From Micromonosporaceae bacterium (GTDB taxonomy: Bacteria; Actinomycetota; Actinomycetes; Mycobacteriales; Micromonosporaceae), in assembly GCA_009377645.1 (NCBI GenBank), contig WHTQ01000003.1:21528-85527 (forward strand): a stretch of DNA of 64,000 nt, given 5' to 3'. The notes under the pieces were generated by a model that did no database searches, was not told the origin of the DNA, and saw nothing but the letters and a program-made list of their open reading frames with translations. Positions 38,235 through 53,252 of the stretch are shown piece after piece (the first letter of the stretch is position 1; each line of letters opens with the position of its first letter). The position numbers and the translations under genes were made by a program.

Positions 38235-38462
38235 CTAGCCGTCGCGCTGGACGAGCCCATCGGCTCCGGCCCCGTCGACAATCACGGCTTCGACCGGGCA
38301 GGAGCGCGCGGCCTCCTCCACCGCCGACTCATATTCGGGGCCCGGGTTCTCGAGGACCACGAACGCCTTGCCGGTCACCTCGTCGACGTCCAGCACCTCG
38401 GGCGCGGCGACCACGCAGTTGGCGTAGCCGGTACACTTCCCGACGTCGATCGACACCCTCAT
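38235..38462 (-). CDS. Small single-cluster ferredoxin (CxxYxxC...CP, 3Fe-4S/4Fe-4S type)
   Basis: 75 aa, MRVSIDVGKCTGYANCVVAAP...SCPVEAV. Its ATG overlaps the UbiD stop (ATGA). The rest of ORF 38235..39395 is an artefact. Confidence 0.8.
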   Translation of the reverse strand: MRVSIDVGKCTGYANCVVAAPEVLDVDEVTGKAFVVLENPGPEYESAVEEAARSCPVEAVIVDGAGADGLVQRDG

Positions 38463-39958
38463 TTCGTCTTGACCCCCTCCGACTCGTGCAGCACGGCGCC
38501 GCCAGCCGCCTGGCCGTCTTCGAAGGCGTAGACCTGGGGGACGGGGCCGTCGAAGCCGAGAGTGGACCAGCGGGCGCTGACCTTGTCGTACATCTCTCGG
38601 GTCATCCGCGTGCGCTTGGAGAAGACCGGCAGGTGCCGGTGCTCCATGCATGCGTTGATGAGCGCTTTCGACCCGTACGGCCGCTCCTCGGGCGGGTTCT
38701 GCGTCGGGTCGAGCCAGCTCGACCAGGTCTGGCGCAGGATGTCGATGTCCTCGACCGGGTTGCAGCGGGTGCCCATCGCCCATTGGACCTGGACATTGTC
38801 GGTGGGGTCCACGTCGTGGTCGACCACCACGAACCACTTGGCGAAGTACGCCCCGCTGGCCGACTGAGCGGCCAGTGCCAGCACCTGTGCGGCGTGACCG
38901 GCGTACTGCTGTTCGATGCTGACTACGACCAGGCCGCGGGATGGGCTGGGGTGCCAGACGCCCTTGACTCCGGGGACGCCCATGGTTTCCAGATCGTTCC
39001 AGACGCCGGCCGACCGGGCGATCGCGCTGTAGGTGAGCGGGTTGTCCGACATCAGCGCGTTCATGATGATCGGCCGGGTCCGGCGCATGATCGAGGTCAC
39101 CTCGATCACCGGACAGGTCGCCTCGGGGCGCCCGTAGTAGCCGGTGAACTCGCCGAACGGGCCCTCCATCTCGGTGGCGTCCGGGTGGATCACGCCCTCG
39201 ACGACCAGCTCGGCGTGTGCCGGGATCAGCAGCTCGGTGGTGGCGCCTTCGACCAGCTCGACCGGACGCCCGCGCAGGCCGCCCATGTACTCGTACTCGG
39301 AGACGTCGTGCGGCAGGGCTAGCGTGCTCAGCATGAAGATGCTTGGCTCGGCGCCCATCACGGCGGCCACCTGCAGCGACTCGCCGCGCTTCCAAGCCCG
39401 GGCGATGTGCAGCCGGGCGTCCTTGCCGGGCGAGAGATACAGCCCGATCCGCTTGGAGTCGTGCACCATCATTCGGTACGTGCCGCAGTTGAGGTAGCCG
39501 GAGTCGGGGTCGCGGGTGATCACCGCGTCGGCCGTGCCGAGGTAGCGCCCGCCGTCCAACGGCCAGTGCTTGGGTGCCGGCAGCTCCAGGAGGTTGATGT
39601 CATCGCCGGTGAGCACGTTGGCATAGATGGGCGCGGCGGTGGGCTCGATGGTGACCGGGGGGATCCGGTTGCGTAGCCGGTTCTTCACCTCGCGGATGAT
39701 GTCGAGCACCGACCCGGCCGGGTCTGCCCCGGCGGTGAGCGCCACCCGCGACGGGCTCTCCAGCGCGTTCCACAACAGCTGTCCCGCCTCGGCCGGGTAG
39801 CCCTTGACGTTCTCGAACAGGACGGCCGGGTTTCCCTTGGTTTTGCCGGCCAGGTAGCTGATCGCGCCTGCCTCCTGGTCCCAGTCGACCGGCTCGCTCA
39901 CCCGCACGAGCTCGCCCATGGCCTCGACCTTGTCGAGCCAATCACGAAGGCTGTCCAT
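38459..39958 (-). CDS. UbiD family (prFMN-dependent) decarboxylase, copy 1
   Basis: 499 aa of UbiD fold, with MDSLRDWLDKVEAMGELVRV... and the central FGEFTGYY-type motif. Confidence 0.9.
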   Translation of the reverse strand: MDSLRDWLDKVEAMGELVRVSEPVDWDQEAGAISYLAGKTKGNPAVLFENVKGYPAEAGQLLWNALESPSRVALTAGADPAGSVLDIIREVKNRLRNRIPPVTIEPTAAPIYANVLTGDDINLLELPAPKHWPLDGGRYLGTADAVITRDPDSGYLNCGTYRMMVHDSKRIGLYLSPGKDARLHIARAWKRGESLQVAAVMGAEPSIFMLSTLALPHDVSEYEYMGGLRGRPVELVEGATTELLIPAHAELVVEGVIHPDATEMEGPFGEFTGYYGRPEATCPVIEVTSIMRRTRPIIMNALMSDNPLTYSAIARSAGVWNDLETMGVPGVKGVWHPSPSRGLVVVSIEQQYAGHAAQVLALAAQSASGAYFAKWFVVVDHDVDPTDNVQVQWAMGTRCNPVEDIDILRQTWSSWLDPTQNPPEERPYGSKALINACMEHRHLPVFSKRTRMTREMYDKVSARWSTLGFDGPVPQVYAFEDGQAAGGAVLHESEGVKTK

Positions 39959-39981: not shown

Positions 39982-40584
39982 TCAGTAGCCGAGCGGGCCG
40001 AGGACCCTGATGCCGTGTTCGTTCTGCAGGTACCGGGCGAACCGGTACTTGATCTCGGGACCTTCATACCTTGCGAGCGGCTTCGGACCACCGGGTCCCT
40101 TCCGCTCGACCTCCATCACAGTGAACGCGAAGCCGGGTGTGGCGATGAGCTCCTTAGCCGCCTCGAGCTCGTCCAGTGAGGACACGTTGACGGCGCGCTC
40201 GACGCCTGCCGCCTTCGCCACCGCGGCGTAGTCGGTCGCGGCGGCGTTTGGCAGGTTGGGGCCGTCGATGGTGCCATAGACCCGGTTGGAGGTGAGGAAG
40301 TACTTCAGGTTGGGCCGGCTTAGTTCGGCCATCGTGAGGATCGAGCCAAAGCTCAGGGTCAGTGAGCCGTCCCCGTCGATCACCCACACAGTGTGCTGCG
40401 GGCACGCCACCGCCAGACCCAGGCCGAACGAGGCGGCCAGCCCCATCGTGTGCATATGGAACGACTGGTCGTCGGCTGGTCCCCAGATCCGGTGCCATTC
40501 CTGGGTGGACGTGCCCAGGCCGAGCACCACCAGCTCGTCACTGTGTTGTCGGCTGAGCCACCCGAGCGCCGCGTCGGCTCTCAC
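39982..40584 (-). CDS. TPP-dependent decarboxylase, beta subunit (sulfopyruvate/phosphonopyruvate decarboxylase-like, PP-binding domain)
   Basis: TPP motif VIDGDGSLTLSFGSILTMAE...NRVYG. The GTG overlaps the alpha-subunit stop (GTGA). Confidence 0.8.
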   Translation of the reverse strand: MRADAALGWLSRQHSDELVVLGLGTSTQEWHRIWGPADDQSFHMHTMGLAASFGLGLAVACPQHTVWVIDGDGSLTLSFGSILTMAELSRPNLKYFLTSNRVYGTIDGPNLPNAAATDYAAVAKAAGVERAVNVSSLDELEAAKELIATPGFAFTVMEVERKGPGGPKPLARYEGPEIKYRFARYLQNEHGIRVLGPLGY

Positions 40585-41090
40585 GTCGGGCCTCCCTTGG
40601 TGATGAGCAGGTGCTTGGCGAGGAAGGTGACGAACGGGCGCTTCAGCAGCAGCGCGCGGGTGTAGGCGGCCGGCAGCTGGTCCAGCTGCGCGGGGTCGCT
40701 GATGGTGATGTGCGGGATGCCCAGCGCATCCAGGTACGGCTTGCCGACCAGCCCTTGCCCTACCTGGTACGTCAGCTGGTCGTCGATGCCACCCCGCAGG
40801 CTGGCCACGACCAGCAGCGGGATCTGATGGGCGAGGTTCAGCGTCACGAGCTCGTGCGCGCTGGCCAGCAGCCCGGCAATGCCCATCGCCGCGGCGGCCC
40901 GGGCACCGCCGAACCAGGCACCGGCACAGACCCCGATCGCCTCGCTCTCCCTGGCGACGGGGATGTAGGTGATCTCGGAGTCGTTGTCAATCAGCGTGAG
41001 CAGCGGGACAATCCAGTCGTCGGGCAAACCTGACACCACGGTGATGCCGGCCGCCTTGAGCTGCTCGTACACCCGGACCGAATCCTCCAC
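40581..41090 (-). CDS. TPP-dependent decarboxylase, alpha subunit (PYR domain)
   Basis: ITVVSGLPDDW...ITYIPVARESEAIGVCAGAWFGG, with the catalytic Glu context. I chose the GTG at 41090 with RBS GAAAGGA. Confidence 0.75.
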   Translation of the reverse strand: MEDSVRVYEQLKAAGITVVSGLPDDWIVPLLTLIDNDSEITYIPVARESEAIGVCAGAWFGGARAAAAMGIAGLLASAHELVTLNLAHQIPLLVVASLRGGIDDQLTYQVGQGLVGKPYLDALGIPHITISDPAQLDQLPAAYTRALLLKRPFVTFLAKHLLITKGGPT

Positions 41091-41110: not shown

Positions 41111-41710
41111 TCACAGCTGTCCCCAGAGCAGCCCGTCGGCGACCCGCAGGCCGGCGTAGGTCTGGAGAACCCAGACGACCAGTCCGACGCCCGCCGCCAT
41201 GAGAGCGGCTGGCCGCCACCCCTCCCGCCGACCCAACGTCATGTAGGCGAACGTCAGCACGACACCCGCTACCAGGAAACCGAGGAGGTAGAGGGCGCCC
41301 GTGTAGGCCGCCAGCCAGACGACCATGATCAAGGTCGCCTTGAGGTCGAAGCTGGGCTCGTTACCCAGGCCGGTGGCCCGTGCCTGGGCCTGGGTCACCA
41401 CCACGGGCGCCGGCGCGGTCGTCTCACCCCCTTCGGGCGACTTCTCTGGGGTCGGGTTCTCTGGGATCGGGCCAGGTGCCGCCGTTGTCGCGGACGGCGG
41501 CCCGGGCTCAGGCGCGGGGTCGAGTGCCGGCCTTGGCCGCCGGACCAGAACGTTGACTATCTCCGCCGCCGCAAAGGTAGCCAGCGCGAGGGTGGCGATC
41601 ATCGGGAAGAGCCGGGTGCGGAACCCCCAGTCCATGCTCATGTTGAGGCCGATCAGGGCCAGCGCGAGCAGGAAACCTGGGAAGACTAGGTCTCGGAGTC
41701 GCTCCTTCAC
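41111..41710 (-). CDS. tctB: TctB-like small permease of a tripartite tricarboxylate transporter, with a Pro-rich loop insertion
   Basis: Four TM segments flank ~70 aa of PALDPAPEPGPPSATTAAPGPIPENPTPEKSPEGGETTAPAP. The GTG at 41710 overlaps the tctA stop. Confidence 0.6.
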   Translation of the reverse strand: MKERLRDLVFPGFLLALALIGLNMSMDWGFRTRLFPMIATLALATFAAAEIVNVLVRRPRPALDPAPEPGPPSATTAAPGPIPENPTPEKSPEGGETTAPAPVVVTQAQARATGLGNEPSFDLKATLIMVVWLAAYTGALYLLGFLVAGVVLTFAYMTLGRREGWRPAALMAAGVGLVVWVLQTYAGLRVADGLLWGQL

Positions 41711-43230
41711 ACATGCTCCTTTCCGGAGGACACTGCTGCGGCAACCGGGCGGCGGGCCGACCGGCGGCGGTGCCAGAGGCCCCGCAGGGGAGGGACAGTG
41801 GCCGAAAGCACCGACACCGCGATGATCACCAAGACGAGCGGGTGGGTCAGCCAGGACATGTCGTAGCGGGACACCGAGAGGAACAGGTAGTTCTCGGCGA
41901 GCCCACCCAGCACCAAGCCGAGCACGAGCGGCGCCCGGGGCCAGTCCAGCTTGACCATCGCCAGGCCGAGCAGGCCGAAGGCCAGCATCACGAAGACGCT
42001 GGACATCGAGGTTCGCTCCGAGTAGGCGCCGATGAAGATGAGCAGCAGCAGCGGTGGCAGGATCAGGCCACTGCGCACGGTGGTGATCTTGGCAATCGGC
42101 TTGACCGCAGCGAGCGCCACCGGGACTGCGATCACGTTGGCGATCACGATCATCCAGACGAACGACATCGTCAGGTCGAGATGGGTGGTGAGCATCTCCG
42201 CACCCGGCTGGATGCCCTGGATGAGGAAGGCGCCGAGCAGGATCGCCATCGTAAGGCTGCCCGGGATGCCAAAGGCGACCGTCGGAACGAGCCCACCGCC
42301 CTCCTTGGAGTTGTTCACCGTGGCTGGGGCGATCACGCCCTCGATCGCGCCCTTGCCGAACCGCGACGGGTCCTTCGACGTCTGCGCGGCGTGCCCATAC
42401 GCCACCCACTGCGCAACCGAGCCGCCCAGGCCGGGTAGGACTCCGACGAAGACGCCGATGAGGCTGGCCCTGATCAGCAACCAGCGGTGGCGGATGACGT
42501 CAAGAATGCCCTCCTTGACTCCGGAGACCTTGTCCGTGGCCTGGCTAGCGATGCCGCCTCGGCGCCTGGCAAGGTCGATCACCTCGGGCAAGCCGAACAG
42601 GCCGATCGCGACTGCGACCAGACCGACTCCGTCCCACAGCTGCAGGCTGCCGAACGTGAACCGCGGGATGCCCGACTGCGGATCCAAACCCACGGTAGAC
42701 AGAAGAAGGCCAAATGCCGCGGCGGCAAGGCTCCGCAGCATCTTGCCGCGGCCGAGCGTGGCGATGAAGGTCAGCCCCAGAATTATCAGCGCGAAGAACT
42801 CAGGTGACCCGAACGACAACACCAATGGACGGACCACCGGGATCGCCGCCACCAGAGCGACGGCGCCGATCACCGCACCGAGCAGGGATGCGAACAGGGC
42901 GGCGCCGAGCGCCCGCCCGGCCTGACCCTGCTTACTAAGGGCATGGCCATCCAGCACCAGCGCGGCCGATGTGGACTCGCCTGGTATTCCGAACAGGATC
43001 GACGTCATGTCACCCGTGGTAGCGGTGACCGAGAGCATGCCAAGCAGGAACGCGAACGCGTGGGTCGGTTCCATGTCGAACGTGAACGGGAGCATGAGCG
43101 CCAGGGTTACGGCGCCGCCGAGGCCCGGCAGGATGCCCACGGTGAACCCGACCGCCATCCCGACAAGCAGGAAGCCGAAAGCCGGCCAGCCAAGTGTCGC
43201 TACCAGCCCGTCAAGGAGTGACTGCAGCAT
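41707..43230 (-). CDS. tctA: TctA family large permease
   Basis: 507 aa, polytopic, with GILPGLGGAVTLALMLPFTF and VLPGLGGSVAQW repeats. Confidence 0.9.
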   Translation of the reverse strand: MLQSLLDGLVATLGWPAFGFLLVGMAVGFTVGILPGLGGAVTLALMLPFTFDMEPTHAFAFLLGMLSVTATTGDMTSILFGIPGESTSAALVLDGHALSKQGQAGRALGAALFASLLGAVIGAVALVAAIPVVRPLVLSFGSPEFFALIILGLTFIATLGRGKMLRSLAAAAFGLLLSTVGLDPQSGIPRFTFGSLQLWDGVGLVAVAIGLFGLPEVIDLARRRGGIASQATDKVSGVKEGILDVIRHRWLLIRASLIGVFVGVLPGLGGSVAQWVAYGHAAQTSKDPSRFGKGAIEGVIAPATVNNSKEGGGLVPTVAFGIPGSLTMAILLGAFLIQGIQPGAEMLTTHLDLTMSFVWMIVIANVIAVPVALAAVKPIAKITTVRSGLILPPLLLLIFIGAYSERTSMSSVFVMLAFGLLGLAMVKLDWPRAPLVLGLVLGGLAENYLFLSVSRYDMSWLTHPLVLVIIAVSVLSATVPPLRGLWHRRRSARRPVAAAVSSGKEHV

Positions 43231-43311: not shown

Positions 43312-44394
43312 CTAGCTCTCCCCGCCGATCAGAGTCTTGAGCTGGTCGCTGACGTCTGTCGGCATACTGAACAGATCGTCGAAGCCCTCCTTCACCTGCG
43401 CCCCGGTGAGCGGGTCGATGAGCAGACTGGCCTGCTCGCTCTCGGCGAGGAAGTCCGGGTCCTGCATCGTGTCGTCGAACGCTTGCTGCATCGCCGCGAC
43501 CCGTTCCTCCGGCACGTCCGGCGGCAAGAAGTAGATCCGGGTCAGACCACGCGGTGTGCCGGTGCCAAAGAACATCAGGTCCTCTTGCACCTTGTCCTGG
43601 GTGAACTCGTAGACTGTCGGCACATCCGGGATGATCTCCTCGATGGTCGGATCTGGCTCGCGGTCGCTCTGGACGAGAGTCGTCCACTCACCGGACTCGA
43701 ACTTGTCGCGGGTCGTGGCAAGCTCGGTGTGCCAGCTGGTCACGAAGCCGTCGATCTCGCCGGACTCGATAGCGAGCTGGATCGCTGAGCTGCCGTCGTA
43801 CCCCGGGACGATCCTGATGTTGGCCCCGAGGACCTCCTTCATCAGGACGGCCGGGTCGGTCTGCATCGAACCGGGCGACTGCACGCCAACAACCAGTTCC
43901 GGACCGCCCGGGGTCAGCAGTTCCTGGAAGCTCTTCGCCGCGGCGTCGGTGCGCGCGACCAGCACTGTGTTGCCTGGCGGGTCAGGCTGGCCGAGGTAGT
44001 TGTACTTGGTCATGTCGAACTGCACCCGTTCCGAGCCGAACAGCTGCTGGATTGCGAGCCCGCCGGTCGCGTTCCCGATGACCGTGCCGTCCTTCGGCGC
44101 CTGGTTGTAGACGTAGTTCATGGCGACCATGTGACCGGCACCCGGCATGTTCTCGACGATGACGTTCGGCTGGCCGGGGATGTGCTCACGGATGTGCTTG
44201 GCAATCATTCGGGCATAGGTGTCGAAGCCACCGCCGGGGGCGGACGCCACGATCAGCCGCACGGTGTTGCCTTCGTAGAATTCCTCCGCGGAGCCCGAGC
44301 TGTCGCCGCCTCCGTCCTCGGAGCTGTTGCCACACGCCGCGACGGCCAGCAATGCGAGCACTCCCGCGAAGGCGCCTAGTTTGCGTACGATCAT
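43312..44394 (-). CDS. tctC: TctC/Bug family extracytoplasmic solute receptor (lipoprotein)
   Basis: Lipobox LLAVAAC and the Bug motif IVASAPGGGFDTYARMIAKHI. Confidence 0.9.
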   Translation of the reverse strand: MIVRKLGAFAGVLALLAVAACGNSSEDGGGDSSGSAEEFYEGNTVRLIVASAPGGGFDTYARMIAKHIREHIPGQPNVIVENMPGAGHMVAMNYVYNQAPKDGTVIGNATGGLAIQQLFGSERVQFDMTKYNYLGQPDPPGNTVLVARTDAAAKSFQELLTPGGPELVVGVQSPGSMQTDPAVLMKEVLGANIRIVPGYDGSSAIQLAIESGEIDGFVTSWHTELATTRDKFESGEWTTLVQSDREPDPTIEEIIPDVPTVYEFTQDKVQEDLMFFGTGTPRGLTRIYFLPPDVPEERVAAMQQAFDDTMQDPDFLAESEQASLLIDPLTGAQVKEGFDDLFSMPTDVSDQLKTLIGGES

Positions 44395-44812: not shown

Positions 44813-45451
44813 TCACTCCTGCGGTGTCCCGATCTCTTGTGCGCCGTCCTGACGGAGGCCTCCCCACTGCCTGACCGGAACGTCGGCCCGCAGGCCGAGC
44901 ATCGCGAGCGCCCTGGCCACGGTGTGCCGGACGATGTCGTCGAGCGTCTCGGGCTTGGTGTAGAAAGCCGGCACCGGCGGCGCGATCACCGCGCCAGCCT
45001 CCGCGGCCGAAGCCATCAGCCGCAGATGGCCAAGGTGCAGCGGGGTCTCTCGGACCAGGAGCACCAGCGGACGGCGTTCCTTGAGGGTCACGTCGGCGGC
45101 CCGGCTGATCAGGTTGTCCGAGTACGAGTGGGCGATCGCTGAGAGTGTCTTGATCGAGCAGGGCGCGACCAGCATTCCCCGGACCGGGAAGGAGCCTGAG
45201 GCGATCGATGCGCCGATATTGTTGACGCTGTGCACGACATCCGCGTGCGCGGCCACCACCCGCCGGTCCAGGCCGGTCTCGTGTTTGAGCGTAACCAGGG
45301 CCGACGCCGAAGCCACCAGGTGCACCTCGATCCGGTCCAGCTCGCGTAGCAGCTGCAGCGCCCGCAGCCCATAGATCGCCCCGCTGGCACCGGTTATCGC
45401 CACGATAACCCGCTCCGGCGCGGGCCGTCCGTTGCTGGGCACCGCGCTCAT
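44813..45451 (-). CDS. ubiX: Flavin prenyltransferase UbiX (prFMN synthase)
   Basis: VAITGASGAIYGLRAL..., PCSIKTLSAIAHSYSDNLISRAADV. Its ATG overlaps the UbiD copy-2 stop (ATGA). Confidence 0.9.
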   Translation of the reverse strand: MSAVPSNGRPAPERVIVAITGASGAIYGLRALQLLRELDRIEVHLVASASALVTLKHETGLDRRVVAAHADVVHSVNNIGASIASGSFPVRGMLVAPCSIKTLSAIAHSYSDNLISRAADVTLKERRPLVLLVRETPLHLGHLRLMASAAEAGAVIAPPVPAFYTKPETLDDIVRHTVARALAMLGLRADVPVRQWGGLRQDGAQEIGTPQE

Positions 45452-46941
45452 CGGGACGCATTCTCTGCGCCCGGGTGGCCTCCGCCTGGCCCGACCTGCC
45501 GTTGGCCGGTACCGAAGCCCCGCAACAGCTCATCCCACCGCTGTGCCACCCGCAGCCGCGCCTGCGGGGGGAACACGTTGCTGTGCGGAAAGTCCTCCCG
45601 CCAGTGGAATGGCCGGCACGCATCCACCAGCAGCCGCCCCATCGTATGGTCGCCGGCCGCCAGCTGCTGCGGCGACAGCCGCGGGTCGAGGGTGGTGGTC
45701 CATGCGCCCCGAATCACGTCGATCGACGTGGCCGGGTCAGCGCGGGTACACATCGCCCAGACCACCTGCTCCAAACTGGTCACGTCGATGTCGTCGTCGA
45801 CCGCCACGTAGTAGCGGTACATGCTGGCGCCACTGCGAAAACCTGACGCGGCGAGCAGGGCCTGCTTGGCATGGCCGGCGTACCGCTGCTTGACGCTGAC
45901 CACGATCATCAGCGTCTTGCAGAACCCCCACACCCCGGTCACGTCGGTGATCCCGGAGCGGTCCAGGTGGTCCCAGAGCTCAAGCGTGAACGACGGGATC
46001 GCCACACTGTCGCTGTCGCCGAGCGGGCGCAGCGGCGGCGTGCCGAGCAAGATCGGCCGTTCCCGGTGATAGATCGTGTCCACGGTCATCACCGGCTCGT
46101 TCCCTTCATGCGAGTAGTAGCCGGGCCACTCGCCGAACGGCCCCTCGTACGCGGTGTCCAGCTCCGGCGACGGGATTCGCCCCTCCAGCACGATCTCGGC
46201 GTGCGCGGGCACCGGAAGGCCACTCGCCGGCAGGTTCACCACCTCTAGCGGGCTGCCCCGGAAGGCGCCGGCCAGCTCGTACTCGGAGGTGCCGAAGGGG
46301 GCTGCCATCGCGGCCGTCATCCAGGTCGCCGGGTCGCAGCCCAGTACCACCGCGATCGGGGCTTCCCGGCCGGCGGCCCAATGCTTCTCCAGGATCATCC
46401 GGCCGTGCTTGGCGGCCAGGATCCACAGGCTCATCCGGTTGCGCCCTTGGATCATGCCTCGGTAGACGCCGACATTGACCCAGCCCCGATCCGGATCCCG
46501 CAGCACGACCATGTCGGCGGTGCCGATGTACCGGCCGCCGTCCCGCTCATGCCACTTTGGCGTCGGAAACGCGTCCAGGTCGACCTCGTCGCCTACCTGC
46601 CGGCTAGCGAGGACGGGACCGTCGGAGGCCACCGCGGGAGGCAGCGGCCCGCTGAGCTGCCGACGCCGTACTCGCCACTGGGCCAGCATGTCCAGCGGGT
46701 GGGCGTCGAGCGGCAGATCGAAGGCAACGCCGAACCGCCGGGTAGTGCGCAGCGGGTTGGCCGCGACCCGGTGCCCCTCCGGGAGGCCATCGAACCGGTC
46801 GAATACCAGCATCGGGCCGCGCGCCTCGGCGGCCAGCTCGGTCAGCACGCCGACCTCCTCGTCCAGCGAGGCGCCGTCGACGAACGCCGCCTCACCGACC
46901 TCGGCGCAGGCGCCGATGAACGCTTCAAGCGAGTCCTGCAT
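45448..46941 (-). CDS. UbiD family (prFMN-dependent) decarboxylase, copy 2
   Basis: UbiD fold, with FGEWPGYY. I prefer the start at MQDSLEAF (46941, RBS GGGGGAGA). The Met at 46974, which overlaps the MFS stop, is the alternative. Confidence 0.85.
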   Translation of the reverse strand: MQDSLEAFIGACAEVGEAAFVDGASLDEEVGVLTELAAEARGPMLVFDRFDGLPEGHRVAANPLRTTRRFGVAFDLPLDAHPLDMLAQWRVRRRQLSGPLPPAVASDGPVLASRQVGDEVDLDAFPTPKWHERDGGRYIGTADMVVLRDPDRGWVNVGVYRGMIQGRNRMSLWILAAKHGRMILEKHWAAGREAPIAVVLGCDPATWMTAAMAAPFGTSEYELAGAFRGSPLEVVNLPASGLPVPAHAEIVLEGRIPSPELDTAYEGPFGEWPGYYSHEGNEPVMTVDTIYHRERPILLGTPPLRPLGDSDSVAIPSFTLELWDHLDRSGITDVTGVWGFCKTLMIVVSVKQRYAGHAKQALLAASGFRSGASMYRYYVAVDDDIDVTSLEQVVWAMCTRADPATSIDVIRGAWTTTLDPRLSPQQLAAGDHTMGRLLVDACRPFHWREDFPHSNVFPPQARLRVAQRWDELLRGFGTGQRQVGPGGGHPGAENASR

Positions 46942-51012: not shown

Positions 51013-52104
51013 CTATGTCTGACCCGGTCGACGGGCATCCCCACGGACGCCCGTTTCTTGTTCCTCTAGCAGCTCCAGGGCCACGGAGACGATCATGTCC
51101 TCCTGCCCACCGACGTATCCCTCCTCGCCGACCCGGGTGAGGATCTTGTGCGCCGGCACGCCGTACCGCTCGGCGGCGCGTTCGGCGTGCAGCAGGAACG
51201 AGGAGTAGACCCCGGCGTAGCCCTGCACGATCGAGGGCCGATCCATGACCGGCATCCGGGGAATGTACGGACGTACGACCTCCTCGGCGGCGGCGAGGGT
51301 ACGTTGCACATCGACACCGGTTGGCACACCGAGCCGGTCGAACACCGCGGCCAGTACCTCGGTGGGCGAGTTGCCCGCGCCCGCGCCCAGCGCGCAGAGT
51401 GCTCCGTCGAGTTGGCGCGCTCCCGCCTCGTAGGCGAGCACGGAGTTGGCCACCCCGAGCGACATGTTCTGGTGGCCATGGAAGCCAACCTCAGCGTCCC
51501 GGCCGACTTCGGCGACCAGCGCCTGCACCCGCTCTTGGGTGTCTGAAAGCATCAGCGCACCGGCCGAGTCCACAACGTAGACACATTGGGCGCCGGCGTC
51601 CACCATGATCCGGGCCTGCTTGGCCAGAGTCGACGGGCTCGCCCGGTGACTCAACATCAGGAAACCCACCGTCTCCAGACCCAGGTCCCGCGCCACCCCG
51701 AAGTGCTGGACCGAGATGTCCGCCTCAGTGCAATGGGTCGCGATACGCACCACCGACATCCCGGCATCGGCCGCGCCGCGCATGTCCTCGACCGTGCCGA
51801 CACCTGGAAGCAGCAGGCATGCGATCCGAGCCGAGTGCGCCTCCTCCCGGGCGGCGCTAATCAACAGCAGCTCGTCCTGCCGGGAGAAGCCATAGTTGAA
51901 ACTTGACCCACCCAACCCGTCGCCGTGGGTCACTTCGACCAGCTCCACGCCGGCCGCGTCCAGCGCGTGCACCGTCGAGCGGACCTGCTCCTCAGTGAAC
52001 TGGTGCGCCATCGCGTGGCTGCCGTCACGCAGGGTCGAGTCGGTGATTCGCAGCGACGGACGGGAAGGCCCGGAACCGACGTCGCCCGTCACATCCCCAC
52101 TCAT
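51013..52104 (-). CDS. 4-hydroxy-2-oxovalerate aldolase (DmpG/MhpE/BphI type)
   Basis: [17 protein letters not shown] and [13 protein letters not shown]. It overlaps the upstream gene stop by 4 nt. Confidence 0.9.
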
Positions 52105-53003
52105 CCCACCGTCCCCCGCTTCCGTTTCGCGAGCATGTCACCCACCCGAGCTGCCGCCGCGGTCATGATGTCAAGATTGCCGGCATAGGTCGGCAGGTGG
52201 TCCCCATTGCCACGGACCTCGAGAAACACCGCCACCCGGGCATCGCCGTTCCATCGTGGATCCGGATCGTCGAACTGCGGCTCAGCCCGCAGCATGTAGC
52301 CCGGGACATACTCCCGCACTGCCTCCACCATGGCCAGGACGCTCTTCGCGATAGCCTCCCGGTCGTGCTCTGCGGGCAAAGAACAGTAAACCGTGTCACG
52401 CATGATGACCGGCGGCTCCGCCGGGTTCAGTATGATCACCGCCTTGCCCCAACGAGCACCGCCCACCACTTCGATCCCCCGCGCGGTGGTCGCCGTGAAC
52501 TCATCGATGTTCGCCCGCGTACCGGGACCCGCCGAACGGGAAGCGATCGACGCGACGATCTCGGCATACTTGACCTCAGCCACGCGGCTGACCGCCGCCA
52601 CAACTGGAATGGTCGCCTGACCCCCGCAGGTGATCATATTTAGGTTCGGCTGGTCCTGGTACTCATCCAGGTTCACCACCGGCACTACAAACGGGCCCAC
52701 CGCCGCAGGAGTCAGGTCAACCACCTGGATACCCGCCCGCCGGTAGCGAGGCGCGTTCGCCGCATGCGCCTGCGCACTCGTCGCCTCAAACACCAACTCG
52801 GGCAGCTCATCCTGACCCAACAGCCAGTCCAACCCGCCCGCGGACGCCTCGACACCGAGTGCGGCAGCCCTACGCAGGCCGTCGGAATCCGGATCGACTC
52901 CCACCATCCACCGAGGCTCGACCCACTCGCTGCGCCGCAGCTTTACCAGCAGGTCCGTACCTATGTTGCCGGGGCCGACAATCGCGGCCCTCACTTTCCC
53001 CAT
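52101..53003 (-). CDS. Acetaldehyde dehydrogenase (acetylating) (DmpF/MhpF/BphJ type)
   Basis: [17 protein letters not shown] and the catalytic [11 protein letters not shown]. Start at the Met at 53003 after GGGAG. Confidence 0.9.
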
Positions 53004-53252
53004 CCCGAGGCTCCCGCAAATCAATGCAAACACGACGATACGAGACGACCCGTCCGCGGGAGCCGCCTGACCGAGAGACCGACTCGATACCCGCAGATTC
53101 TGCAAAAGGCCACGTACCGACGACAAGGGCTTGGTTCCGGTGACCGAGACGCGCCTCGCAGCTAGCGGGTGTAGTGGTCACCCGGCTGGAAGCCCGTCGT
53201 TGTTACGGGACTCGCCGGCGATCCGTCCCGCGCCGGGCCTAGCCTGGCAAGC

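What the first reader, a model, noticed from the sequence alone, without database searches (positions are those of the whole stretch)
39982..41090. Split ComDE-like TPP decarboxylase embedded between a TTT transporter and a UbiD enzyme
Seen: the PYR domain (169 aa) and the PP domain (200 aa, GDGS...N motif) are encoded as separate, overlapping genes. This is the architecture of sulfopyruvate decarboxylase ComDE and its phosphonopyruvate decarboxylase relatives. No PEP mutase gene, and no coenzyme M, xsc or sulfite-exporter genes, are present in the window.

Known: in some bacteria sulfolactate is imported by a TTT system and degraded through sulfopyruvate decarboxylase. NitT/TauT ABC systems import sulfonates.

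Inference, two readings:
- (a) A 2-oxoacid side-chain decarboxylase for an aryl-2-oxoacid intermediate. The 2-oxoacid could come from the D-2-hydroxyacid dehydrogenase in the same cluster.
- (b) A sulfonate-related step, meaning the substrate is a sulfonated aromatic.

Neither reading is supported beyond gene context.
Basis: partly seen in the sequence, partly recalled or inferred. Interest (0 to 1): 0.6.

Follow-up and report, generated by a model that had tools for sequence, protein, structure and literature searches.

The report
Split thiamine decarboxylase paired with UbiD
Two overlapping genes encode a two-subunit thiamine-dependent decarboxylase that is neither the coenzyme-M nor the phosphonate enzyme it resembles. 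It belongs to a rare catabolic clade that usually sits next to a UbiD decarboxylase, and it most likely removes a carboxyl group from an imported nitrogen-containing aromatic acid.

Summary
On the minus strand, a 169-aa PYR subunit (40581-41090) and a 200-aa PP subunit (39982-40584) overlap by 4 nt. They lie between tctCAB and a UbiD gene inside a 27-kb aromatic-catabolic island of lower GC.

The pair is not ComDE and not Ppd:
- It scores far below both curated cut-offs. Methanogen ComDE scanned the same way passes them.
- The genome has no Xsc or ComA.
- A genuine PEP mutase and a single-chain Ppd sit together on another contig.

In a tree of both subunits, the pair falls in a rare clade. That clade groups (support 100/97) with pairs from lum-type operons, which I take to be LumK/LumL, the TPP-dependent quinoxaline-carboxylate decarboxylase described in 2025. 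Methanogen ComDE lies outside this group.

A UbiD gene lies beside the pair in 5 of 7 independent contexts of its clade. A solute-binding-protein gene is almost always adjacent. The operon's second UbiD, with UbiX, is about 55% identical to phenazine-1-carboxylate decarboxylase PhdA.

Best reading (about 0.48): a LumKL-like decarboxylase for an alpha-imino or alpha-oxo carboxylate of an imported N-heteroaromatic acid, working in tandem with UbiD. The substrate is not identified.

The sulfonate reading is not supported, and the link to the 2-hydroxyacid dehydrogenase is not conserved. Earlier notes of this scan reported similar split TPP pairs on other DNA.

The parts
40581..41090 (-). TPP decarboxylase alpha subunit (PYR domain), 169 aa, GTG start
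   Evidence: TIGR03845 gives 101.4 bits, below the 147.95 cut-off. Pfam TPP_enzyme_N. AF2 model pLDDT 88; Z 23.8 to AzcB and 23.1 to RhiE. The R47-E48 catalytic-Glu motif is invariant in 18 homologues.
39982..40584 (-). TPP decarboxylase beta subunit (PP domain), 200 aa. Its GTG start overlaps the alpha stop by 4 nt.
   Evidence: Pfam TPP_enzyme_C E 4.3e-16. TIGR03846 gives 81.9 bits, below the 221.5 cut-off. GDG-X26-N motif. Clade-specific FHMH.MG motif and a 20-aa C-terminal tail.
38459..39958 (-). UbiD-family (prFMN) decarboxylase no. 1. It starts 23 nt after the beta stop and is the recurrent partner of the TPP pair.
   Evidence: Pfam UbiD_N, UbiD and UbiD_C. 268 bits to PhdA, PDB 7PDA. 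A UbiD gene lies next to the pair in L001-L006, L126, L127 and L142/143.
41111..41710 (-). tctB, small membrane subunit of the TTT transporter. Its GTG start overlaps the tctA stop.
   Evidence: Pfam TctB. Start read from the sequence.
41707..43230 (-). tctA, large membrane subunit of the TTT transporter
   Evidence: Pfam TctA, 440 bits.
43312..44394 (-). tctC, solute-binding protein of the TTT transporter
   Evidence: Pfam TctC. TctC- or NMT1-type binding proteins lie beside the pair in almost all related loci.
44813..45451 (-). UbiX-type flavin prenyltransferase, which makes prFMN for the UbiD enzymes
   Evidence: Pfam Flavoprotein, E 4.5e-43.
45448..46941 (-). UbiD-family decarboxylase no. 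2, PhdA-like
   Evidence: 505.6 bits, E 1.5e-150, aligned over almost the full length to PhdA (7PDA), the phenazine-1-carboxylate decarboxylase of M. fortuitum.

Best explanation
SHOWN
- The two overlapping genes encode the PYR (alpha) and PP (beta) halves of a heteromeric thiamine-diphosphate decarboxylase. The catalytic Glu and the GDG-X26-N cofactor motif are intact.
- The pair is packed tightly between tctCAB and a UbiD gene in one catabolic operon.
- It belongs to a rare, uncharacterised bacterial clade that lies outside ComDE and Ppd.
- That clade groups with a TctC-linked Xanthobacteraceae clade. One node deeper it groups with the clade that holds the pairs from lum-type operons.
- A UbiD gene and a solute-binding-protein gene recur beside the pair.

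INFERRED
- Like LumK/LumL (and the AzcBC 'alpha-imino acid decarboxylase'), the enzyme adds the TPP ylide to a carboxyl-bearing C=N or C=O carbon of an imported N-heteroaromatic acid of the quinoxaline, phenazine or quinoline type, and expels CO2.
- The adjacent prFMN enzyme UbiD removes a second carboxylate on a ring carbon that TPP chemistry cannot reach.
- The stripped ring then enters the Rieske dioxygenase, amidase, LigB extradiol dioxygenase, C-C hydrolase and DmpFG steps encoded in the same island.
- The actual substrate is not identified.
For: 1. Not ComDE or Ppd, by calibrated models. The window pair scores 101.4 and 81.9 bits against cut-offs of 147.95 and 221.5. Methanogen ComD/E score 218/261.5 and 199/226 and pass. 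A pair from a lum-type operon scores 75.5/82.2 and fails in the same way as the window pair.
2. Tree of alpha+beta (57 rows, 365 columns, IQ-TREE).
 - Window clade of 7 rows: 97/93.
 - Window clade plus Xanthobacteraceae clade: 100/100.
 - That group plus the clade with the Lum-type pairs: 100/97.
 - Methanogen ComDE is outside (100/94).
 - Holding window+Xanthobacteraceae with ComDE costs 38.7 lnL, p-AU 0.031.
3. The Lum-type pairs come from an operon in genome G582 whose gene order and sizes match the published LumC..LumU. It has a Rieske alpha, a VOC dioxygenase, an amidohydrolase, a 211-aa isochorismatase, a roughly 1280-aa Fer2/MoCo/FAD oxidase, 176- and 200-aa TPP subunits, a 493-aa amidohydrolase, 4 ABC genes and a 740-aa fused P450 (against PMC12746152).
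4. A UbiD gene lies within a few kb of the pair in 5 of 7 independent contexts of the window clade. These are the window type, L006, L126, L127 and L142/143; in L142 the UbiD gene overlaps the alpha start.
5. N-compound enzymes recur in the clade's contexts:
 - AS amidase in the window and in L008;
 - Mo-hydroxylase in L008;
 - hydantoinase B, isochorismatase and a luciferase-like monooxygenase in L006;
 - M20 peptidase and amidohydrolase-2 in L128.
6. The same operon holds a UbiD+UbiX pair with 505 bits to PhdA, which acts on phenazine and quinoxaline carboxylates.
7. The catalytic residues are present.
Against: - No enzyme of this clade has been assayed.
- Identity to the Lum-type pairs is only 32-34% (alpha) and 29-33% (beta). 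That is no higher than identity to methanogen ComDE, at 34-39% and 28-30%. The link to LumKL therefore rests on tree topology, not on similarity.
- The true N. simplex LumK/L, AzcB/C, RhiE/F and bacterial sulfolactate-pathway ComDE sequences could not be added to the tree.
- The window lacks the Mo-hydroxylase and the pyrimidine-ring hydrolases of the lum pathway.
- Its Rieske alpha is benzoate/anthranilate-like, its LigB is MhpB-like and its hydrolase is BphD/HsaD-like. All of these also fit a purely carbocyclic aromatic acid.
- Two clade contexts (L008, L128) show no UbiD within the available flank.
- The AU group was named after the tree had been seen.
Confidence: 0.48

Rival explanations
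1. A decarboxylase for an ordinary 2-oxoacid: an aryl-glyoxylate side chain, or a 2-oxoacid produced by ring cleavage or by a dehydrogenase in the cluster. It would yield the aldehyde.
For: - TPP decarboxylases classically act on 2-oxoacids.
- After the split enzymes, benzoylformate decarboxylase is the next PDB sequence match to the beta subunit.
- The lower-pathway genes (benzoate/anthranilate-type Rieske, MhpB-like LigB, BphD-like hydrolase, DmpFG) fit carbocyclic aromatics.
- A D-2-hydroxyacid dehydrogenase is in the island.
Against: - The dehydrogenase is 11 kb away and is not beside the pair in other contexts of the clade.
- The conserved neighbours are UbiD and binding proteins.
- The tree groups the pair with the heterocycle decarboxylase lineage.
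- Amide hydrolases and a Mo-hydroxylase recur in the contexts.
Confidence: 0.25
2. Sulfopyruvate decarboxylase (ComDE) acting in sulfolactate or sulfonate catabolism, with the substrate imported by the TTT or NitT/TauT-type systems.
For: - The best NCBIfam hits are TIGR03845 and TIGR03846.
- JGI labels close homologues 'sulfopyruvate decarboxylase'.
- A TTT transporter is adjacent.
Against: - The scores are far below the cut-offs that methanogen ComDE passes.
- The pair lies outside the ComDE clade.
- There is no Xsc above cut-off (best 306 bits against 676) and no ComA in a genome that is 95% complete.
- The operon is aromatic-catabolic.
Confidence: 0.04
3. A split phosphonopyruvate decarboxylase, like RhiEF.
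For: TIGR03297 is the second-best hit for both subunits. The fold match to RhiEF has Z 23.1.
Against: - 58 and 70 bits against a cut-off of 312.5.
- The genome has a genuine single-chain Ppd (434 bits) directly beside a genuine PEP mutase (411 bits) on contig C46.
- No PEP mutase lies near the pair in 96 related loci, apart from one weak hit.
Confidence: 0.02
4. A non-decarboxylating TPP enzyme (a carboligase or C-C lyase), or a structural partner of the UbiD enzyme rather than an independent catalyst.
For: - The tight and recurrent UbiD linkage, with overlapping genes in L142.
- TPP folds also support lyase and ligase chemistry (benzaldehyde lyase and HACL rank high).
Against: - The partner UbiDs belong to different UbiD lineages: 57%, 40%, 39% and 35% identity to UbiD no. 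1. That argues against a fixed complex.
- All four characterised split relatives are decarboxylases.
Confidence: 0.08

Closest known systems
LumK/LumL, the TPP-dependent quinoxaline-2-carboxylate ('heterocycle') decarboxylase of lumichrome catabolism in Nocardioides simplex (Sinha et al. 2025, PMC12746152)
   Same: - Two small subunits (about 20 and 23 kDa) encoded by adjacent genes in an actinobacterial catabolic operon.
- That operon also has a Rieske dioxygenase without a dihydrodiol dehydrogenase, an extradiol dioxygenase, amide hydrolases and NMT1-type ABC genes.
- Both pairs fall in the same well-supported clade (100/97).
   Different: - Only 32-34% and 29-33% identity to the pairs from lum-type operons, and a separate sub-clade.
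- The window clade has its own motifs: beta FHMH.MG, a 20-aa C-terminal tail, and alpha MGIAG in place of QN(S/A)G.
- The window operon has UbiD x2, UbiX and TTT. It lacks the P450, the Mo-oxidase and the pyrimidine-ring hydrolases.
I used pairs from operons that match the published gene order and sizes.
ComDE sulfopyruvate decarboxylase (coenzyme M biosynthesis; TIGR03845/TIGR03846)
   Same: Split PYR/PP architecture. It is the best-scoring curated family. Identity to methanogen ComD/E is 34-39% and 28-30%.
   Different: Below both curated cut-offs, outside the ComDE clade, no CoM or sulfonate genes in the genome, and an aromatic-catabolic context.
AzcB/AzcC, TPP-dependent alpha-imino acid decarboxylase from Streptomyces (PDB 9U8Q/9U8R/9U8S)
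   Same: It is the best PDB match to both subunits by sequence (48 and 34 bits) and to the alpha subunit by fold (Z 23.8, rmsd 2.0 over 164 residues). It is split into two subunits and acts on a C=N acid.
   Different: About 24% identity. I know only the PDB entry title, because no paper is held. It was not in the tree.
RhiEF, the split phosphonopyruvate decarboxylase of rhizocticin biosynthesis (PDB 9IZ3/9IZ4), and single-chain Ppd (TIGR03297)
   Same: Same fold and same split architecture (Z 23.1).
   Different: About 23% identity. No PEP mutase linkage. The genome's real Ppd is elsewhere.

Membership tests
TPP-dependent decarboxylase fold (PYR + PP domains) | PYR domain with the cofactor-activating Glu, and PP domain with the GDG-X(24-27)-N Mg/diphosphate motif | tested here: met
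   Alpha R47-E48 is invariant in 18 homologues. Beta has GDG-X26-N. Pfam PF02776 and PF02775. The AF2 model matches split and fused TPP enzymes at Z 19-24.
ComDE sulfopyruvate decarboxylase | Scores above the curated equivalog cut-offs of TIGR03845 (alpha) and TIGR03846 (beta) | tested here: not met
   101.4 against 147.95, and 81.9 against 221.5. As a control, Methanobacterium and Methanosaeta ComD/E pass (218/261.5 and 199/226) and a Lum-type pair fails.
ComDE sulfopyruvate decarboxylase | Placement inside the ComDE clade | tested here: not met
   Methanogen ComDE forms its own clade (100/94). The window pair lies in a different clade (100/97). The AU test disfavours joining them, p 0.031. 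Bacterial sulfolactate-pathway ComDE was not in the tree.
ComDE sulfopyruvate decarboxylase | Pathway partners in the genome: ComA for CoM biosynthesis, or Xsc for sulfolactate/sulfoacetaldehyde catabolism | tested here: not met
   No ComA match. The best Xsc-model hit is 306 bits against a cut-off of 676. Genome completeness is 95%.
Phosphonopyruvate decarboxylase (Ppd/RhiEF) | Score above the TIGR03297 cut-off, and linkage to PEP mutase | tested here: not met
   58.4 and 70.5 bits against 312.5. PEP mutase (411 bits) sits beside a real Ppd (434 bits) on contig C46, not here. There is no PEP mutase in the related loci.
LumKL-type heterocycle (alpha-imino/oxo acid) decarboxylase | Common ancestry with LumK/LumL to the exclusion of ComDE and Ppd | tested here: met
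   The 33-row clade holding the window clade and the pairs from lum-type operons has support 100/97. Caveat: the Lum-type rows were identified by operon content, not taken from the published strain.
LumKL-type heterocycle (alpha-imino/oxo acid) decarboxylase | Context of N-heterocycle breakdown: ring amide hydrolases, Mo-hydroxylase, ring-opening Rieske dioxygenase | tested here: inconclusive
   The window has an AS amidase and a Rieske system without a dihydrodiol dehydrogenase, but no Mo-hydroxylase or pyrimidine hydrolases. Clade relatives L006, L008 and L128 do carry such genes.
LumKL-type heterocycle (alpha-imino/oxo acid) decarboxylase | Decarboxylation of a heteroaryl 2-carboxylate | not testable with these tools
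   This needs an enzyme assay.

The most novel reading that the evidence does not exclude
The split TPP enzyme and the adjacent UbiD enzyme form a conserved, mobile 'double decarboxylase' module, supplied by a binding-protein-dependent importer. The TPP enzyme removes the carboxylate next to a ring nitrogen and the prFMN enzyme removes a carboxylate on a ring carbon. Together they would define a new route for degrading dicarboxylated N-heteroaromatics such as phenazine- or quinoxaline-derived acids. This clade would then be a new substrate class of the recently discovered TPP-dependent heterocycle decarboxylases.
Probability: 0.3. Interest if true: 0.65.

Novelty: new variant of a known kind. 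Interest (0 to 1): 0.5.

Why it matters
TPP-dependent decarboxylation of a heteroaromatic carboxylate was first reported in 2025, for LumK/LumL. That paper states that two-subunit TPP decarboxylases had previously been identified only in coenzyme M and rhizocticin biosynthesis.

This pair belongs to a separate, rare clade. Only 6 of 1.84 billion cluster representatives match at E <= 1e-30. Automatic annotation mislabels its relatives as 'sulfopyruvate decarboxylase'. The clade is repeatedly wired to prFMN (UbiD) decarboxylases and to high-affinity importers.

If the tandem reading holds, three things follow:
- It gives a testable route for the poorly known breakdown of phenazine- or quinoxaline-type acids by actinobacteria.
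- It corrects a systematic mis-annotation.
- It offers two complementary cofactor-dependent (de)carboxylases for biocatalysis.

Tried and rejected
- Plasmid collection, protein mode, alpha subunit: no match.
- Complex prediction was not used. I do not claim that the TPP pair binds UbiD, and an alpha/beta pass would only reflect likeness to solved split enzymes.
- The PhdA paper (J Bacteriol 2018) and the supplements of Costa et al. 2015 are not held. The published M. fortuitum PCA locus lists VOC-type ring-cleavage dioxygenases. I therefore do not equate the window island with that locus.
- No paper on AzcBC was found. Only the PDB title is known.
- The Lum paper and its SI give no accession numbers. 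I located lum-type operons by searching 401 genomes of the class and 401 of the family.
- The family-level search found no second copy of the window-type pair in 400 other genomes of the family. The next best hits (about 135 bits) are Lum-type pairs.
- The Xanthobacteraceae sister clade (about 43% identity) has TctC directly upstream but variable other neighbours: amidohydrolase-2, an enolase-superfamily protein, M24, VOC. It did not help to name a substrate.
Full report
**Observation**

The window is about 70% GC. Between roughly 26 and 53 kb the GC content drops to 0.66-0.70, against 0.72-0.77 in the flanks. This stretch holds one long minus-strand gene array. I mapped it with ORF listing, a GC3 filter and Pfam/NCBIfam scans. 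In order of transcription it reads:
- an ORF at 52101-53126 (taken to be the DmpF-type dehydrogenase; not scanned here) and a DmpG-type aldolase;
- an NMT1-type ABC importer and an MFS transporter;
- UbiD no. 2 and UbiX;
- tctC, tctA and tctB;
- the two TPP genes;
- UbiD no. 1;
- a ferredoxin reductase and Rieske alpha and beta subunits;
- a C-C hydrolase and a LigB-type extradiol dioxygenase;
- two MmgE/PrpD proteins;
- an amidase-signature amidase;
- a D-2-hydroxyacid dehydrogenase.

The reported genes are exactly where stated. The PP subunit is at 39982-40584 (200 aa, GDG-X26-N). The PYR subunit is at 40581-41090 (169 aa). They overlap by GTGA.

The 169-aa start is the right one for three reasons:
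- It has a ribosome-binding site.
- It follows the tctB stop by 20 nt.
- It matches the N-termini of the homologues.

tctB itself starts with a GTG that overlaps the tctA stop. UbiD no. 1 starts 23 nt after the beta stop. These genes therefore form one tightly packed transcription unit.

**What the pair is not**

NCBIfam ranks the sulfopyruvate decarboxylase subunit models first and the Ppd model second. All scores are far below the curated cut-offs:

| Subunit | Model | Score (bits) | Cut-off (bits) |
|---|---|---|---|
| alpha | TIGR03845 (ComD) | 101.4 | 147.95 |
| beta | TIGR03846 (ComE) | 81.9 | 221.5 |
| alpha | TIGR03297 (Ppd) | 58.4 | 312.5 |
| beta | TIGR03297 (Ppd) | 70.5 | 312.5 |

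(All.)

I calibrated these cut-offs. ComD/E of Methanobacterium and Methanosaeta pass both. A pair from a lum-type operon, a Xanthobacteraceae pair and a 53%-identical relative of the window pair all fail, as the window pair does.

In the window's own genome (95% complete):
- There is no ComA, and no Xsc above cut-off.
- A genuine PEP mutase (411 bits) sits directly beside a genuine single-chain Ppd (434 bits) on contig C46. The phosphonate function is therefore already covered by another gene.
- Among 96 loci that carry related pairs (1.54 Mb in all), only one has even a weak PEP-mutase-superfamily hit.

**What is known about split TPP decarboxylases**

Literature and PDB searches gave four characterised two-subunit enzymes:
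- ComDE.
- RhiEF, PDB 9IZ3/9IZ4.
- LumK/LumL of the Nocardioides simplex lumichrome operon. [quoted passage not shown]
- AzcB/AzcC, whose PDB title reads 'TPP-dependent alpha-imino acid decarboxylase'.

AzcBC and RhiEF are the best PDB matches, but only at about 24% identity.

**Finding Lum-type pairs**

The Lum paper gives no accession numbers. I therefore searched 401 genomes of the window's family and 401 of its class with a profile of the alpha subunit.

Genome G582 carries an operon whose order and sizes match the published LumC..LumU:
- Rieske alpha;
- VOC dioxygenase;
- amidohydrolase;
- 211-aa isochorismatase;
- a Fer2, MoCo and FAD oxidase of about 1280 aa;
- TPP subunits of 176 and 200 aa;
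- 493-aa amidohydrolase;
- two permeases, an ATPase and an NMT1 binding protein;
- a 740-aa P450 fused to a reductase and a ferredoxin.

The same H-I-J-K-L-M block occurs in two genomes of the window's own family, G283 and G129.

**Phylogeny**

[quoted passage not shown] The genome's own Ppd served as outgroup. The results were:
- Methanogen ComDE forms a clade: 100/94.
- The window pair sits in a 7-row clade: 97/93.
- That clade is sister to a Xanthobacteraceae clade: 100/100.
- Together they are sister to the clade holding the Lum-type pairs: 100/100 for that clade, 100/97 for the union.
- Forcing window+Xanthobacteraceae to join ComDE costs 38.7 log-likelihood units, p-AU 0.031. The group was named after the tree had been seen.

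Raw identity does not discriminate:

| Compared with | alpha identity | beta identity |
|---|---|---|
| Lum-type pairs | 32-34% | 29-33% |
| Methanogen ComDE | 34-39% | 28-30% |

 The pair is therefore a distinct lineage, not a LumKL orthologue.

Clade-specific features are:
- beta F(H/Y)MH.MG, just before the Met-Gly that aligns with the residue supporting the cofactor's V-conformation (inference);
- a 20-residue beta C-terminal tail;
- alpha MGIAG in place of QN(S/A)G.

The lineage is rare:
- HMMER against 1.84 billion cluster representatives gives 6 hits at E <= 1e-30 and 288 at E <= 1e-10. The best hit is 54% identical.
- Within 400 other genomes of the family there is no other window-type pair.

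**Context**

Metagenomic contigs with pairs about 75% identical carry the same operon in the same order (L001-L005).

More distant members of the clade (52-63% identity) sit in different surroundings:

| Locus | Genes around the pair | UbiD beside the pair |
|---|---|---|
| L006 | TPPab, UbiD, tctC, isochorismatase, tctAB; upstream hydantoinase B, FAD and luciferase-like monooxygenases, Rieske, MBL hydrolase | yes |
| L126 | tctC, TPPab, then divergently tctC and UbiD | yes |
| L127 | TPPab, then divergently NMT1, UbiD (57% to UbiD no. 1), NMT1 | yes |
| L142/143 | UbiD, then a second UbiD that overlaps TPPa, TPPb, cupin | yes |
| L008 | Rieske alpha/beta and AS amidase, then divergently TPPab, NMT1, ADH, NMT1, Mo-hydroxylase | no, within the flank |
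| L128 | amidohydrolase-2, M20, tctC, TPPab | no, within the flank |

Counting the window-type operon as one context, UbiD lies beside the pair in 5 of 7 independent contexts. A genome has only a handful of UbiD genes, so this is far more than chance. The partner UbiDs are of different lineages (57, 40, 39 and 35% identity to UbiD no. 1). That fits a functional pairing of two decarboxylation chemistries better than a fixed complex.

A TctC- or NMT1-type binding protein is adjacent almost everywhere, including in the Xanthobacteraceae sister clade.

**The rest of the operon**

- UbiD no. 2 with UbiX scores 505.6 bits, over nearly the full length, against PhdA, the phenazine-1-carboxylate decarboxylase. 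PhdA also turns over a quinoxaline-5-carboxylate. UbiD no. 1 scores 268 bits against the same enzyme.
- The Rieske alpha is benzoate/anthranilate-1,2-dioxygenase-like. No dihydrodiol dehydrogenase is present.
- The LigB is MhpB-like and the hydrolase is BphD/HsaD-like.

**Mechanism proposed**

Shown:
- a catalytically intact split TPP decarboxylase;
- co-transcribed with a TTT importer and a UbiD gene;
- in a clade related to the LumKL lineage and outside ComDE and Ppd.

Inferred:
- The enzyme removes the carboxylate attached to a C=N or C=O carbon of an imported N-heteroaromatic (di)carboxylate.
- UbiD removes a ring-carbon carboxylate.
- The product goes through the Rieske dioxygenase (with spontaneous re-aromatisation or ring opening, as in LumABCD), then the amidase, LigB, the hydrolase and DmpFG.
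- One concrete but unproven possibility is a quinoxaline dicarboxylate derived from a phenazine carboxylate. Its 2-carboxylate would suit TPP chemistry and its 5-carboxylate would suit a PhdA-like UbiD.

**Limits**

- Nothing in this clade has been assayed.
- The authentic LumKL, AzcBC, RhiEF and bacterial sulfolactate-pathway ComDE sequences are not in the tree.
- The related loci were gathered with a pattern derived from the query's own family, which biases the sampling.
- The lower-pathway enzymes would also fit a carbocyclic substrate.

Earlier notes of this scan on other genomes describe similar split TPP pairs in N-heterocycle clusters, one of them with a UbiD. I found the LumKL precedent independently. 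I treat those notes as leads only.

**Verdict**

This is a new variant of the recently recognised split TPP heterocycle/alpha-imino-acid decarboxylases. It is notable for its recurrent coupling to UbiD. Interest is moderate.

Noticed in passing
window 44813-46941 (-): UbiD no. 2 plus UbiX looks like a PhdA/PhdB pair. It scores 505.6 bits (E 1.5e-150), roughly 55% identical over the full length, against phenazine-1-carboxylate decarboxylase PhdA (PDB 7PDA). The island may degrade phenazine- or quinoxaline-type carboxylates.
   Followed up: partly
own genome, contig C46:15193-17165 (loci L116, L119): A genuine PEP mutase (411 bits, above cut-off) lies directly beside a genuine single-chain phosphonopyruvate decarboxylase (434 bits, above cut-off). 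The organism probably makes a phosphonate, independently of the window's TPP pair.
   Followed up: partly
L139/L135/L140 (G582:C1:128600-174500); L136 (G283); L137 (G129): A complete lum-type (lumichrome catabolism) operon is present in one genome of another family. The H-I-J-K-L-M core block is also present in two large genomes of the window's own family. The operon is therefore not confined to Nocardioides.
   Followed up: partly
L142:2950-5658 and L143: In a metagenomic relative (52% identity), a 533-aa UbiD gene overlaps the start of the TPP alpha gene. A second UbiD lies upstream and a bicupin lies downstream. This is the tightest UbiD-TPP coupling that I saw.
   Followed up: no
window 26000-53500: The whole catabolic array has lower GC (0.66-0.70) than its flanks (0.72-0.77). 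Its TPP pair has no counterpart in 9 other genomes of the genus or in 400 of the family. This is consistent with a horizontally acquired island.
   Followed up: partly
L047:9272-11104: In one alphaproteobacterial MAG the alpha and beta reading frames run together in a single 610-aa ORF. This is either a natural fusion or an assembly error.
   Followed up: no
L040, L066, L068, L072, L080, L085: Several soil MAGs (Binatia, Eisenbacteria, Verrucomicrobiia, Myxococcota) carry two or three paralogous split TPP pairs within 10 kb. This points to a large, unexplored radiation of these enzymes.
   Followed up: no
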